From contig CAVSGG010000009.1 of NCBI GenBank assembly GCA_963727455.1, positions 320,001-384,000 of the forward strand: a stretch of 64,000 nucleotides of DNA, given 5' to 3'. Of the stretch, positions 16,460-18,920 are shown piece after piece. Every line of letters starts with the position of its first letter. Positions within the stretch are counted from its first letter, which is position 1. The notes under the pieces are model-generated. The model was not told the DNA's origin and ran no database searches. It saw nothing but the letters and a program-made list of their open reading frames with translations. The DNA comes from Candidatus Krumholzibacteriota bacterium. GTDB taxonomy: Bacteria > Krumholzibacteriota > Krumholzibacteriia > JAJRXK01. Made by a program: the position numbers and the translations under genes.

Positions 16460-17146
16460 ATGCATCCTTCACGTAGTCTCGCGCTGTTCTCTCTCGCCTT
16501 CGCCTTCTTTCTATTGAGCCCGGCCTACCTCGTGGCCTCCGCGCCTCCTCACGGGCTGCTGCGCGTCGGGGACCTACTTGACATGCTCACTCCTCTGGCG
16601 CTCTTGCCGCTCTACGCTCTCCTCTTGTACCAACGCCACGGGGCTTGGCCCCGATGGCCCAAAATGATTTTGTTCTTGGTGCTCTCGGCTCTCTGGGTCG
16701 AAGGGCATTCGATGCACCTGGCCGCGAACGCGTTGGGGCACTTGCTCGACGCACGGCCGCTCACCGCGGCTTATCGCCTGGATTATTTTCTGGACGAACA
16801 CCTGAGCCACGTGCTGTGGCATGCCGCTATCATCCTGCTCGCAGTCCTGCTCTTGGTCCAAGCCAAACGCGAAGAAGTAGATTCGCCGGTGAGCTGCATC
16901 GTGGGCGCGGTGCCCTATGGCTTCAGCTACTTCGCGATCACGGTGGAAGGACAGACTGCGGCGCTAGGAATCCTCGCGGCGTTCGCACTCTCGGGGTGGA
17001 TCGCTTCGAGCTTCAAAGAGCGAAAGAAGGATGCGTACTCCGTCTTCTTTCTCTCAGCGCATCTGCTTGCACTCGCACTCTATCTGCTTTGGTACCTCAT
17101 GCACGGGGGACTGCCGCAATTCAGCGAAGTGGGACTGCTAAAATGA
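16460..17146 (+). CDS. Polytopic membrane protein resembling CLN6
   Basis: AGGAG RBS; about 7 TMs; VGD, GHSMHL, YFLDEHLSHVLW and VEGQ motifs in the same order as in human CLN6 (remembered sequence). Confidence 0.65.
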   Translation: MHPSRSLALFSLAFAFFLLSPAYLVASAPPHGLLRVGDLLDMLTPLALLPLYALLLYQRHGAWPRWPKMILFLVLSALWVEGHSMHLAANALGHLLDARPLTAAYRLDYFLDEHLSHVLWHAAIILLAVLLLVQAKREEVDSPVSCIVGAVPYGFSYFAITVEGQTAALGILAAFALSGWIASSFKERKKDAYSVFFLSAHLLALALYLLWYLMHGGLPQFSEVGLLK

Positions 17147-17270
17147 AGAAGAATGCTAACAGCAGCAACGAGAAGAGACCGCCCCCGATGGGAACGGTCT
17201 CTTGTTCGCGCTGCCGGCGCGACGCAGCTAACAGAAGGCGTGCGCCGTGGGAGCAGGAAAACTCGGGCTT

Positions 17271-17537
17271 TTACATGCTCACGAAATCGTGGGCACGTAC
17301 TGTTTTGCGGCCATTCGCCTTGGCGCGCTTCGCGGCCTGCTCGATGTACCAGTAGACAATGCCATTGAGACCATCGAGAGCGTCTCCGGCAACGTTGACC
17401 CCGTAGTTCTTGAGCGCGACTTTCGTCTTGCTTCCCACGAGCAACATCTCCATGGCGGCCTTCCTGGAAGCGGCCTTTTTTCTCGCCGTCTTCTTCTTGG
17501 CGGTCTTCCTCTTGGCAGCGGTCTTCTTCTTGGCCAC
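17271..17537 (-). CDS. Bacterial histone (short-alpha3 histone fold) with Lys-rich N-terminal tail
   Basis: AAGGAGG RBS 6 nt before GTG 17537; 88 aa. Core LLVGSKTK...GDALDGLN...A.KRAKANGRKTVRAHDF carries the histone RKTV...D signature. Tail AKKKTAAKRKTAKKKTARKKAASRKAA. Confidence 0.88.
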   Translation of the reverse strand: MAKKKTAAKRKTAKKKTARKKAASRKAAMEMLLVGSKTKVALKNYGVNVAGDALDGLNGIVYWYIEQAAKRAKANGRKTVRAHDFVSM

Positions 17538-17777
17538 AGTGGGCCTCCTTGGGTTTTGATTGTCAAACGAGGAGCCGGCACCACACCGGTCCTTCACGAT
17601 CGACAACGAGTCCGAGGGAAGTCCTACCCTTGGTGCAGTGCACCGTGATGGAGTGGGGTCCCATTGCGACCCGTGCGCTGTAAGAGCCGGAAATAACTCA
17701 ATCGCGCCACGACGGCAAGCGTTTTCGCGAGAACTCGTCCCACCGCGAGCGATGTTGCCTCGGCTTGGGCACCAAAC

Positions 17778-18920
17778 TCAGTGGGCGGCTGCCTCGCTCG
17801 CGGCCACGGATTTGCGAATCGCGACCAACTCGAGGTGCAGGATAAGCGGACTGTTTGGAGGAACGACTCCCGGGATACCCCGAACTCCGAATCCAAGCTT
17901 CGCGGGAAGAAAGACCCAGCGCTCCTCCCCCACCTGCATTTTCAGGAAATTCATCTCCCACTGCAGACCTCTGCGAGGCTCGCCGGCCACCAACACCTCG
18001 GGCTTTCCGTCCTGATACGTCGATTCCACCACTTTCCCGTCGGGAAGGTAGCAGGCGTAATTCACCACGATGGTCTGTCCCTTCTTCGGCTTCTCGCCAT
18101 TTCCACTCACGGTCTTGACCATGCGGCTGCCATCATCTTGCTTGCGTGATTTCTTGCGCAGTGGATCGACCCTCTCTTGGAAGCGCTGCGTGTGCAACCG
18201 GGCGAGTTGGGTCGCATCCAGGTCCTTGAGCTCTTGAAACGTGGCCTCGGCATCGAACTCTTGCGCCGCTTTCCCGCGCCGGATGATCTTCACCGACCGC
18301 AAGTGCACATCCTCCTCGGGTTTGTTGTCATTGGTGGGTACCGAAGAAATCGCGGAGACGACATCCATTCCCATCACCACGCGCCCGAAAATGCTGAATC
18401 GCCGATCGAGCTCGGACTCACGCTTCTCGGTGATGAAGAACTGGCTTCCGTTGGTGTTGGGACCCTGATTGGCCATGGCCAGGACTCCGGGACGATCAAA
18501 ACTGAGGCCCGGTACGATCTCATCGCGAAAGCGGTAGCCGGGTCCGCCGGTACCACGCCCGGTGGGATCGCCGGACTGGATGAGAAAGCCACCGATCACC
18601 CGGTGGAAGGTCAGACCGTCGTAGAAGGGTTGCTTCGTCGATTCGTCGGATTGCCCATCGACGCCGCTCCTGGTTCCCTCAGCGAGGCCCACGAAATTGG
18701 CGACCGTGAGGGGGACTCGCTGGAAGAAGAGCTTACATACGATGACGCCCAGATCGGTCTGGAGCACTGCGTACAGACCGTCGGCGGCGGTCGCTTCCTC
18801 CACCGTACCGTAACTCGGACCTGTCGCCTCGTCGGTGGCATTCTGCGCGTGAACGGGGCTTCTCAGTGGAAGGAGAAGCAACACGACGCAAAGGAAGACT
18901 CTTGCAGAAGCGCGGTGCAT
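17778..18920 (-). CDS. Exported peptidyl-prolyl isomerase, cyclophilin fused to an FKBP-like domain
   Basis: Signal peptide; FYDGLTFHRVI, IQSGDP, AMANQGPNTNGSQFFIT; C-terminal VNY..YL.DG...and LP..LGFG...VPPNSPL. Confidence 0.9.
   Translation of the reverse strand: MHRASARVFLCVVLLLLPLRSPVHAQNATDEATGPSYGTVEEATAADGLYAVLQTDLGVIVCKLFFQRVPLTVANFVGLAEGTRSGVDGQSDESTKQPFYDGLTFHRVIGGFLIQSGDPTGRGTGGPGYRFRDEIVPGLSFDRPGVLAMANQGPNTNGSQFFITEKRESELDRRFSIFGRVVMGMDVVSAISSVPTNDNKPEEDVHLRSVKIIRRGKAAQEFDAEATFQELKDLDATQLARLHTQRFQERVDPLRKKSRKQDDGSRMVKTVSGNGEKPKKGQTIVVNYACYLPDGKVVESTYQDGKPEVLVAGEPRRGLQWEMNFLKMQVGEERWVFLPAKLGFGVRGIPGVVPPNSPLILHLELVAIRKSVAASEAAAH

What the first reader, a model, noticed from the sequence alone, without database searches (positions are those of the whole stretch)
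17271..17537. Bacterial histone carrying a eukaryote-like Lys-rich N-terminal tail
Seen: an 88-aa ORF with a strong AAGGAGG RBS. The last 60 aa (EMLLVGSKTKVALKNYGVNVAGDALDGLNGIVYWYIEQAAKRAKANGRKTVRAHDF) carry the histone-fold RKTV...D signature and a truncated alpha3. In front is a 27-residue tail, AKKKTAAKRKTAKKKTARKKAASRKAA (11 Lys, 3 Arg, no acidic residues), encoded by degenerate 15-18 bp tandem repeats. Known: short-alpha3 histones exist in Bdellovibrio (Bd0055/HBb) and Leptospira (HLp), and as I recall them they lack a long basic tail. The GDAxDGLN...KR...N.R.TVR..DF pattern is closer to the Leptospira face-to-face tetramer type. Inference: this may be a tailed bacterial histone whose tail binds linker DNA or accepts acetylation, methylation or phosphorylation, meaning tail-regulated chromatin in a candidate-phylum bacterium. 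The TARK string also occurs in the H3 tail, but this may be a low-complexity coincidence.
Basis: partly seen in the sequence, partly recalled or inferred. Interest (0 to 1): 0.9.

Follow-up and report, generated by a model that had tools for sequence, protein, structure and literature searches.

The report
Lysine-tailed face-to-face bacterial histone
A small gene in an uncultured wetland-type bacterium encodes a histone of the tetramer-forming "face-to-face" kind with a floppy lysine-rich front tail; such tailed bacterial histones are already described in published surveys, so this is a clear but ordinary new member whose tail function nobody has yet tested.

Summary
Window 17271-17537 (minus strand) is an 88-aa ORF with a GTG start, an AAGGAGG Shine-Dalgarno 6 nt upstream and a strong hairpin after the stop. 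Residues 30-88 are an alpha3-truncated histone fold. The best solved relative is HLp of Leptospira perolatii (phmmer E 4.4e-10; Foldseek target TM 0.96, rmsd 0.7 A). The face-to-face (FtF) tetramer residues R71/N75/R77 are present and conserved in the family, and a homotetramer model passes its controls (0.92 vs 0.02).

Residues 1-29 are a disordered tail (pLDDT about 50) with 11 Lys, 3 Arg and no acidic residue.

The tail is not unusual. All 120 single-fold sequences in the top-hit set (query plus 119 hits) carry a basic tail of 12-51 residues, and 97 begin MAKK. Schwab et al. [quoted passage not shown]

Verdict: a new member of a known kind, probably in Krumholzibacteriota. It coexists with a tail-less paralogue and three HU/IHF genes. 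Interest is low to moderate.

The parts
17271..17537 (-). Complete coding sequence of the tailed FtF histone (88 aa, GTG start, TAA stop at 17273-17271)
   Evidence: Homology. Fold.
17451..17537 (-). Codons 1-29: disordered Lys/Ala-rich N-terminal tail (11 K, 3 R, no acidic residue; net +14)
   Evidence: pLDDT block means are 48, 51 and 68 for residues 1-30. Composition. A basic tail is present in all 120 single-fold sequences of the top-hit set.
17271..17450 (-). Codons 30-88 plus stop: alpha3-truncated histone fold (alpha1 35-43, alpha2 53-74, alpha3 82-85). It carries the R77-x-T79-x4-D84 motif and the tetramer residues R71 and N75.
   Evidence: pLDDT block means 86-97 over residues 31-88; 55 of 88 residues are at pLDDT >=90. 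(HLp target TM 0.96). (N75 and R77 invariant; R71, T79 and D84 in >=90% of 119 sequences). (tetramer interface includes residues 67, 70-71, 73-75, 81, 83-84, 86-88).
17544..17550 (-). Shine-Dalgarno AAGGAGG, 6 nt before the GTG start
   Evidence: The duplex with a generic anti-SD motif is -11.4 kcal/mol here and -8.0 to -11.9 across all 11 loci tested.
17488..17534 (.). Degenerate 18-bp (6-codon) tandem repeat inside the tail-coding part
   Evidence: 2.9 copies at 77% matches; 1.9 copies at 94%.
17538..17665 (-). Putative 5' leader. Contigs from RNA libraries bridge it into the tail codons and stop at 17645-17665. This is only a weak hint of a transcript 5' end.
   Evidence: X11 record 1 (17443-17665, 3 other letters), X19 record 14 (17494-17645, 1), X23 record 31 (17503-17662, 1). 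No sigma-70-like promoter was found and no Rfam family.
17173..17203 (-). 14-bp GC-rich hairpin about 70 nt after the stop, terminator-like with a weak U tract
   Evidence: minimum free energy -38 kcal/mol for the 56-nt stretch, z -7.16, 0 of 200 shuffles fold as well. It was not flagged by the simple terminator scan.

Best explanation
The gene encodes a nucleoid-associated histone of the alpha3-truncated, face-to-face (FtF) class, the class whose solved bacterial example is HLp of Leptospira perolatii.

Shown here by computation: residues 30-88 adopt the histone fold. They are predicted to form the handshake dimer and, through the C-terminal end of alpha2, loop L2 and the stub alpha3 (R71, N75, R77, F85), a dimer of dimers.

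Inferred by homology to HLp, which Hu et al. 2025 report to be tetrameric in solution and to bind DNA around its rim: the tetramer wraps DNA using S36, K37, K39, K43, G51 and T79.

Shown: translation most probably starts at the GTG behind the strong SD, so each subunit also carries a 29-residue disordered Lys/Ala-rich tail. That is +14 per chain and +56 per tetramer.

Inferred: the tail acts as a sequence-independent polycationic arm that raises DNA affinity and neutralises flanking or neighbouring DNA. This promotes compaction or bridging, in the manner of the Lys-rich extensions on some bacterial HU proteins and the C-terminal domain of linker histones (both recalled, not tested). The tail evolves by slippage of short codon repeats, with composition conserved and sequence and length not conserved.
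For: Fold and class:
- phmmer against PDB gives HLp (9qt0) E 4.4e-10, HBb (8cmp, 8fvx) about 3e-4 and HTkC (9f2c) 3.6e-3.
- The AF2 model has mean pLDDT 81.1, with block means of 86-97 over residues 31-88. Helices are 35-43, 53-74 and 82-85.
- Foldseek top hits are 9qt1_A and 9qt0_A (target TM 0.96, rmsd 0.7 A, 46% identity), then HBb (0.85-0.89) and HTkC (0.88-0.89).

Tetramer residues:
- The alignment is ungapped, and paper numbering +22 gives our numbering. HLp R49, N53 and R55, which Hu 2025 (section 7) call conserved in tetrameric FtF histones, correspond to R71, N75 and R77.
- Of the six interface residues named there, 4 are identical (S52 is A74 and T61 is H83).
- In alignment A1 of 119 sequences, N75 and R77 are invariant and R71 is >=90% conserved.

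Tetramer model (four copies of residues 29-88):
- ipSAE is 0.92 against a best control of 0.02.
- The tool's mark was reached by 20 of 30 proteins solved as pairs of one chain and by 1 of 23 solved as single chains.
- The runs share >=98% of their contacts, and the partner pLDDT is >=93.
- The second interface uses residues 67, 70-71, 73-75, 81, 83-84 and 86-88.

DNA contacts: 6 of the 9 HLp contact positions listed in Hu 2025 section 9 are identical here.

Tail is real:
- The SD is stronger at the upstream start in 11 of 11 loci.
- All 9 family orthologues keep an open, Lys-rich, in-frame tail despite 2- and 8-codon length differences.
- 120 of 120 single-fold sequences have tails >=12 residues, 116 of 120 have K+R >=0.35 and 117 of 120 have no acidic residue.
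- 97 of 120 begin MAKK.
- Near-identical contigs from RNA libraries of two studies span leader plus tail codons.

Disorder: pLDDT is 48-51 over residues 1-20.
Against: - No experiment exists on this protein or, in my searches, on any tailed bacterial FtF histone. The solved HLp was made as the 63-residue form because its SD fits the short start.
- The tetramer pass may reflect the model's memory of the solved HLp/HTkC tetramers. The tool's calibration was for two copies, not four.
- Pfam finds no family. NCBIfam archaea_histone scores 15.4 bits against a 50-bit cut-off.
- Met sits at codon 29 in 63 of 120 and at codon 31 in 118 of 120. A purine-rich AGGAAGG lies 5 nt before ATG29 (-6.5 kcal/mol). 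Internal initiation giving a tail-less product is therefore not excluded.
- The RNA-library contigs cannot prove transcription, a 5' end or translation.
- Tail non-synonymous codon changes about equal synonymous ones (2/2, 7/6, 5/5), against 13/4, 15/6 and 16/6 in the core. The tail sequence is thus weakly constrained. That fits a charge-only role but argues against specific recognition sites.
- The genome also has three HU/IHF genes, so the histone need not be the main organiser.
Confidence: 0.75

Rival explanations
1. Eukaryote-like regulated tail. The Lys/Thr/Ser-rich tail is a platform for reversible acetylation, methylation or phosphorylation that switches DNA binding, giving tail-regulated chromatin in this bacterium. 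This is compatible with the best explanation and adds a regulatory layer to it.
For: - The tail has 11 Lys, 3 Thr and 1 Ser in 29 residues.
- Four Hist_deacetyl-family genes are present in the genome.
- Recalled, not tested: Lys-rich tails of mycobacterial HupB are acetylated and methylated.
- Schwab 2024 calls such tails H3-like.
Against: - No tail motif is conserved beyond MAKK. TARK occurs in 7 of 120 and is absent from the closest orthologues.
- Non-synonymous changes about equal synonymous ones in the tail.
- No SET or SIR2 gene was found in the 88.85%-complete genome.
- HDAC-family genes occur in 36 of 41 relatives whether or not they carry the tailed histone.
- No modifying enzyme lies next to the gene. 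The neighbours are an S49 peptidase, a CLN6-like membrane protein, a cyclophilin-FKBP isomerase and a permease.
Confidence: 0.1
2. Tail not made, or two isoforms. Translation starts mainly at Met29 or Met31, so the working protein is a tail-less 58-60-residue histone like HLp. Alternatively both tailed and tail-less chains are produced from one mRNA.
For: - Met is at position 29 in 63 of 120 and at position 31 in 118 of 120.
- AGGAAGG lies 5 nt before ATG29.
- Hu 2025 chose the short form of HLp on SD grounds.
- Tail-less relatives begin exactly at this position (L038, L047).
Against: - The SD duplex is stronger at the upstream start in 11 of 11 loci, and in four of them it is as weak as -0.8 to -1.9 kcal/mol before codon 29.
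- A non-coding leader would not keep an open frame, a Lys-rich composition without acidic residues and an MAKK start across 120 sequences whose cores differ by up to about 35%.
- Codon 29 is CAG in L010 and L011.
Confidence: 0.1
3. HBb-like dimer. The protein acts as a DNA-bending dimer, like the Bdellovibrio 'bacterial dimer' histone, and not as a wrapping tetramer.
For: - HBb is a clear structural relative (target TM 0.85-0.89; E about 3e-4).
- The RKT motif (R77-K78-T79) is the form that Schwab 2024 describes for bacterial dimers and nucleosomal histones.
Against: - R71 and N75, which bacterial dimers lack according to Schwab 2024, are present and conserved.
- HLp is the closer relative by sequence and by fold.
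- The tetramer model passes its controls.
Confidence: 0.05

Closest known systems
HLp, the face-to-face histone of Leptospira perolatii (PDB 9QT0/9QT1/9QT2; Hu et al. 2025, PMC12701072; sections 6, 7 and 9 and searched passages read)
   Same: - Same alpha3-truncated fold (target TM 0.96, rmsd 0.7 A, 46% identity over 57 columns).
- Same tetramer residues R, N, R and terminal F.
- 6 of 9 DNA-contact positions are identical.
   Different: - HLp was studied as a 63-residue protein with only about 7 disordered N-terminal residues. This protein has a 29-residue Lys-rich tail backed by a strong SD.
- Per Hu 2025, Leptospira lacks HU and has one histone. This genome has three HU/IHF genes and a second histone.
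Tailed bacterial FtF histones as surveyed by Schwab et al. 2024 (PMC11390915; searched passages read, supplements not visible)
   Same: This is the same category. [quoted passage not shown] That matches what searches show for this subfamily.
   Different: The passages I saw name Spirochaetota, Planctomycetota, Bdellovibrionota and Myxococcota, not Krumholzibacteriota. A search for 'Krumholzibacteriota' plus 'histone' found 0 papers. Supplementary Figs 13, 19 and 20 may already contain this subfamily, but I could not see them.
HBb / Bd0055, the 'bacterial dimer' histone of Bdellovibrio bacteriovorus (PDB 8CMP, 8FVX, 9EZZ)
   Same: Alpha3-truncated fold and the RKT...D motif.
   Different: HBb has S and D where this protein has R71 and N75 (alignment). 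It has no long tail, and it is reported to bend DNA as a dimer.
HTkC, the archaeal FtF histone of Thermococcus kodakarensis (PDB 9F2C)
   Same: FtF fold (target TM 0.88-0.89; E 3.6e-3).
   Different: Archaeal FtF histones generally lack tails (Schwab 2024).
Lys-rich extensions on other DNA organisers: HU of Mycobacterium (HupB), Streptomyces (HupS) and Deinococcus, Ku of M. smegmatis, and the eukaryotic H1 C-terminal domain (recalled; titles and abstracts only seen in the listing)
   Same: Low-complexity Lys/Ala/Pro/Thr-rich, acid-free, disordered segments attached to a folded DNA-binding core. The tail composition here is K 44%, A 28%, R 6%, T 6%, S 4%, P 4%.
   Different: Here the folded core is a histone fold, and the segment is N-terminal.
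Tailed histones of Asgard archaea and the eukaryotic core histones
   Same: A basic, disordered N-terminal tail on a histone fold.
   Different: Those are nucleosomal histones with a full alpha3 and four-helix-bundle contacts. This protein is an alpha3-truncated FtF histone with a different dimer-dimer interface (Hu 2025, section 7). No tail motif is shared beyond chance.

Membership tests
alpha3-truncated prokaryotic histones (Schwab 2024) | Histone fold: alpha1 - L1 - long alpha2 - L2 - alpha3 | tested here: met
   The AF2 model has helices 35-43, 53-74 and 82-85, with pLDDT block means of 86-97 over residues 31-88. All nine top Foldseek hits are histones of this class.
alpha3-truncated prokaryotic histones (Schwab 2024) | alpha3 reduced to 3-4 residues | tested here: met
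   The alpha3 helix spans residues 82-85, four residues. The definition is quoted.
alpha3-truncated prokaryotic histones (Schwab 2024) | RxTxxxxD motif (RD clamp plus L2 threonine) | tested here: met
   R77-K78-T79-V80-R81-A82-H83-D84. In 119 sequences R77 is invariant and T79 and D84 are >=90% conserved.
Face-to-face (FtF) histones | Conserved Arg and Asn at the end of alpha2 that make the dimer-dimer contact (R41/N45 in D4GZE0; R49/N53 in HLp) | tested here: met
   R71 and N75 have the same spacing to R77, T79 and D84 as in the published motif. N75 is invariant and R71 >=90% conserved.
Face-to-face (FtF) histones | Confident homotetramer prediction with two separated interfaces | tested here: met
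   The score is 0.92 against a best control of 0.02. The tool's mark was reached by 20 of 30 solved one-chain pairs and by 1 of 23 single chains. The runs share >=98% of contacts, and the partner pLDDT is >=93. The second interface uses residues 67-88. Caveat: like complexes (HLp, HTkC) are solved, so this shows likeness, not binding.
Face-to-face (FtF) histones | Tetramer in solution and DNA wrapping | not testable with these tools
   This needs SEC-MALS, native MS and DNA-binding assays on purified protein.
Bacterial dimer histones (HBb-like) | Lack of the tetramerisation Arg and Asn; no confident multimer beyond the dimer | tested here: not met
   Both residues are present and the tetramer model passes. 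HBb aligns S and D at these positions.
Pfam CBFD_NFYB_HMF / DUF1931; NCBIfam archaea_histone (NF043032) | Score above the curated cut-off | tested here: not met
   Pfam returns only a sub-threshold DUF6465 hit on the tail (9 bits against a 26-bit cut-off). NF043032 scores 15.4 bits against 50. These curated models do not capture this subfamily. The tail-less paralogue just passes DUF1931 (22.5 against 21.8).
Eukaryote-type histone tail (H3/H4-like) | Conserved tail sequence motifs that are read and written by dedicated enzymes | tested here: not met
   No motif is conserved beyond the MAKK start. TARK occurs in 7 of 120. No SET or SIR2 gene was found in the 88.85%-complete genome. Actual modification is not testable here.

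The most novel reading that the evidence does not exclude
The tail is a built-in linker-histone-like module that was born by extension upstream of the ancestral start Met and grew by slippage of 15-18-bp codon repeats.

The ancestral Met (codon 29 or 31) is retained, and the Lys/Arg codons before it are SD-like. The cell could therefore make both tailed and tail-less chains from this one gene. Together with the separate tail-less FtF paralogue, it could set the number of tails per tetramer. That would be a bacterial counterpart of histone variants, tuning compaction by charge dosage.

The tailed gene would be a horizontally mobile accessory. It is found in only one family of its phylum, yet close relatives occur in several other phyla.
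Probability: 0.1. Interest if true: 0.6.

Novelty: new member of a known kind. Interest (0 to 1): 0.3.

Why it matters
Bacterial histones have only recently been recognised, and only two bacterial ones have solved structures: HBb and HLp.

This locus adds a clean, well-supported example of the tailed FtF subclass in a candidate phylum that the passages I read do not name. The evidence that the tail is translated is explicit: a strong SD, a conserved MAKK start and an open frame kept through length changes. That is the same criterion that led Hu et al. to discard the long form of HLp.

It also shows that this subfamily is very large (1876 clusters at 90% identity matched at E<=1e-3) and that its members almost always carry tails.

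The open question is what a +14 tail does to a DNA-wrapping tetramer, and whether it is modified. That question is untested in the literature I could search. This protein is small and could be made recombinantly with and without the tail.

The finding does not change the current picture. Tailed bacterial histones are already in print.

Tried and rejected
**Family libraries.** Pfam and NCBIfam gave no family above cut-off, so classification rests on PDB sequence and fold matches.

**Promoter and RNA families.** The promoter scan found 0 sigma-70-like sites. Its terminator scan found only two plus-strand hits inside the gene, which I regard as noise. The real hairpin was found by folding. Rfam at E<=1 gave 0 matches in 17000-18000.

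**Writers and erasers.**
- SET: 0 hits. SIR2: 0 hits. Both in an 88.85%-complete genome.
- Hist_deacetyl: 4 hits in G000. The family is in 36 of 41 relatives, including those without the tailed histone.
- I rejected this as evidence for tail modification.

**Reads.**
- Most of the 219 laid contigs (7 + 30 + 15 + 167) are 31-57-nt pieces on the low-complexity stretch 17483-17535. They probably come from other organisms' Lys-rich genes.
- The parts of the stretch without cover (17000-17440, 17680-18000) say nothing.
- The 3-nt 'left out' variant at 17515 may likewise belong to other organisms.
- Only the four 152-223-nt contigs with 1-3 other letters were used, and only as a weak hint.
- Small-share runs were not used for habitat.

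**H3 likeness.** TARK was rejected as a low-complexity coincidence.

**Synteny.** The PPIase and S49 peptidase neighbours are conserved only within the genus (L004, L005, L006, L008). They are not found next to the gene in L007, L009-L011, L015 or L017. No functional link is suggested.

**Not attempted.**
- A phylogeny to test horizontal transfer, because the core is only about 57 residues. The patchiness claim rests alone.
- A complex of the tailed protein with the tail-less paralogue.

**Papers.**
- Schwab 2024: passages found by term search only.
- Hu 2025: term passages and sections 6, 7 and 9.
- All other papers: search listings only.
Schwab's Supplementary Figs 13, 19 and 20 on tails could bear on novelty.
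Full report
**What is there**

On the minus strand, window 17537-17271 is an 88-codon ORF. It starts with GTG, ends with TAA and is preceded by AAGGAGG (17550-17544) with a 6-nt spacer. About 70 nt after the stop lies a 14-bp GC-rich hairpin at 17203-17173. The 56-nt stretch folds at -38 kcal/mol with z -7.16, and 0 of 200 shuffles fold as well.

The upstream gene on the same strand is a cyclophilin-FKBP isomerase that ends 240 nt away. The flanking genes are unrelated to chromatin: an S49 peptidase, a CLN6-like membrane protein and a permease. The gene looks monocistronic.

- The 27-residue tail has 11 K, 3 R and no acidic residue.
- The tail is encoded by degenerate tandem repeats. TRF finds an 18-bp period with 2.9 copies at 17488-17534.

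**What the core is**

- Curated family models miss it.
- phmmer against all PDB chains finds four histones and nothing else of note: HLp of Leptospira perolatii (9qt0, E 4.4e-10), HBb of Bdellovibrio (8cmp and 8fvx, about 3e-4) and HTkC of Thermococcus (9f2c, 3.6e-3).
- An AlphaFold2 model built on 119 homologues has pLDDT block means of 86-97 over residues 31-88. Its helices are 35-43, 53-74 and a four-residue 82-85, which is the alpha3-truncated histone fold.
- Foldseek ranks HLp first (target TM 0.96, rmsd 0.7 A, 46% identity), then HBb and HTkC.

**Which subclass**

Schwab et al. 2024 separate face-to-face (FtF) tetramers from 'bacterial dimers' by an Arg and an Asn at the end of alpha2. 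The dimers lack both. Hu et al. 2025 show these residues (R49, N53, with R55) making the tetramer interface of HLp.

The ungapped alignment maps them to R71, N75 and R77 here, whereas HBb has S and D at the first two. In the 119-sequence alignment N75 and R77 are invariant and R71 is at least 90% conserved.

A four-copy model of residues 29-88 gave the following:
- It scored 0.92 against a best control of 0.02.
- The tool's mark was reached by 20 of 30 proteins solved as pairs of one chain and by 1 of 23 solved as single chains.
- The runs share at least 98% of contacts, and the partner pLDDT is at least 93.
- Besides the handshake dimer, it shows a second interface using residues 67, 70-71, 73-75, 81, 83-84 and 86-88.

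Because HLp and HTkC tetramers are solved, this pass shows likeness and may come from memory. The calibration was also for two copies, not four.

Six of the nine HLp DNA-contact positions are identical here: S36, K37, K39, K43, G51 and T79. The other three differ as A to G35, T to V49 and T to K78.

I therefore file the protein as an FtF histone.

**Is the tail real?**

This question matters because Hu et al. rejected the longer database form of HLp on SD grounds. Here the same criterion points the other way.
- In all 11 loci examined (nine orthologues of the same GTDB family, one of them present twice as L009 and L015, plus one Acidobacteria MAG), the anti-SD duplex is -8.0 to -11.9 kcal/mol before the upstream start. 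It is -0.8 to -6.5 before codons 29 and 31.
- All nine family orthologues keep the frame open through 2- and 8-codon length differences.
- I took the query plus the 120 best of the 1876 database matches and set aside the one tandem doublet, P0005. Every one of the remaining 120 has a tail of 12-51 residues with a median of 24. The 51 is an over-extended gene call. K+R is at least 0.35 in 116 of them, and 117 have no acidic residue.
- 97 of the 120 begin MAKK.
- The model leaves residues 1-20 at pLDDT about 50, which marks them as disordered.
- Near-identical contigs from RNA libraries of two studies run from the tail codons across the start into the leader and stop at 17645-17665. This is only a weak hint of a transcript with a leader of about 125 nt. 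It cannot show translation.

Against a simple picture, Met occupies codon 29 in 63 of 120 and codon 31 in 118 of 120, and tail-less relatives begin exactly there. The Met may be a relic of the ancestral start, and some internal initiation is not excluded.

**How the tail behaves in evolution**

Its composition is K 44%, A 28%, R 6%, T 6%, S 4% and P 4%. Beyond the MAKK start no motif is conserved.

Between close orthologues, non-synonymous codon changes roughly equal synonymous ones in the tail (2/2, 7/6, 5/5). In the core the counts are 13/4, 15/6 and 16/6. Length changes occur in repeat units.

TARK occurs in 7 of 120 tails at different places and is absent from the two nearest orthologues. 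It is a low-complexity coincidence.

This pattern fits a charge-and-length function, at +14 per chain and +56 per tetramer, better than a code of specific sites.

**Genome and distribution**

- The window lies in an 18-contig, 3.46-Mb genome that is 88.85% complete with 6.68% contamination.
- A genome of the same family carries a locus 100% identical over 3273 bases to a record titled Candidatus Krumholzibacteriota. The organism is therefore probably of that candidate phylum.
- The genome also has a second, tail-less FtF-type histone (C5:132991-133158). It has the same R-x3-N-x-R-x-T signature and just passes DUF1931.
- It has three ordinary HU/IHF genes without Lys tails. This is unlike Leptospira, which Hu et al. 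describe as lacking HU and having one histone.
- At E<=1e-20 the tailed gene is in 9 of 208 genomes of the phylum, all in one family (8 of 9 plus the own genome). It is in 0 of 198 genomes of the other eight families.
- Cores 56-77% identical occur in MAGs labelled Acidobacteria, Elusimicrobia, Verrucomicrobiales, Bdellovibrionota and Myxococcota. Their tails range from 4 to more than 30 residues.
- This patchiness suggests horizontal spread. I did not test it with a tree.

**Comparison with what is known**

Passages of Schwab et al. [quoted passage not shown] The central claim of the finding, a bacterial histone with a eukaryote-like basic tail, is therefore already in print.

My searches found no experimental study of such a tail, and no paper pairs Krumholzibacteriota with histones.

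Lys-rich extensions on HU, Ku and linker histones are functional analogues that I recall. I saw them only as titles and abstracts.

**Verdict**

The histone fold, the FtF type and the tail are real. The novelty and the H3 likeness are not supported, and regulation by modification is untested.
- This is a new member of a known kind.
- The most useful follow-up is biochemical: compare full-length protein with the deletion of residues 1-29 and determine the true N-terminus.

The tools listing of cluster members and the search of earlier findings were closed, so no earlier findings entered this report.

Noticed in passing
G000:C5:132991-133158 (+) = L002:1498-1668: A second, tail-less FtF-type alpha3 histone in the same genome. 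It is 56 aa from its ATG, about 39% identical to the core of the tailed one, and has the same R-x3-N-x-R-x-T-x4-D signature. It just passes Pfam DUF1931 (22.5 bits against a 21.8-bit cut-off). Second matches also occur in 7 of the 9 other genomes of the family.
   Followed up: partly
Proteins P0167, P0177, P0262, P0269: Tandem-doublet alpha3 histone-fold proteins that begin with a hydrophobic, signal-peptide-like segment. They may be exported or periplasmic histone-fold proteins. In all, 28 of the 150 best 50%-identity representatives are doublets, and most of those have no tail.
   Followed up: no
Phylum-wide: The long-tailed subfamily is confined to one family of its phylum: 9 of 208 genomes carry it, and 0 of 198 outside that family do. 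Close relatives sit in MAGs of several other phyla. The distribution is patchy and looks like horizontal transfer. No tree was built.
   Followed up: partly
window 17645-17665 (-): Contigs from RNA libraries of two studies, plus one library that is probably DNA, all stop within about 20 nt of each other, roughly 110-128 nt upstream of the GTG. No sigma-70-like promoter was found upstream. This may be a transcript 5' end, and the promoter type is unknown.
   Followed up: partly
window 17778-18920 (-): A single 380-aa ORF that fuses a cyclophilin-type and an FKBP-type peptidyl-prolyl isomerase domain and has a hydrophobic N-terminus. It lies next to the histone gene only within the genus.
   Followed up: no
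window 16460-17146 (+): A 228-aa multi-pass membrane protein that matches Pfam CLN6, an otherwise eukaryotic family, at 32.7 bits against a 27-bit cut-off.
   Followed up: no
G000: Four Hist_deacetyl-family genes in a 3.46-Mb genome, two of them in open frames of about 600 aa. Relatives have 0-3. There is no link to the histone: the family is present in 36 of 41 relatives whether or not they carry it.
   Followed up: partly
window 17000-18000: Apart from the run that may be the source, four DNA runs from four studies hold 0.22-0.56 of the sampled words. Three are labelled wetland metagenome and one salt marsh metagenome.
   Followed up: no
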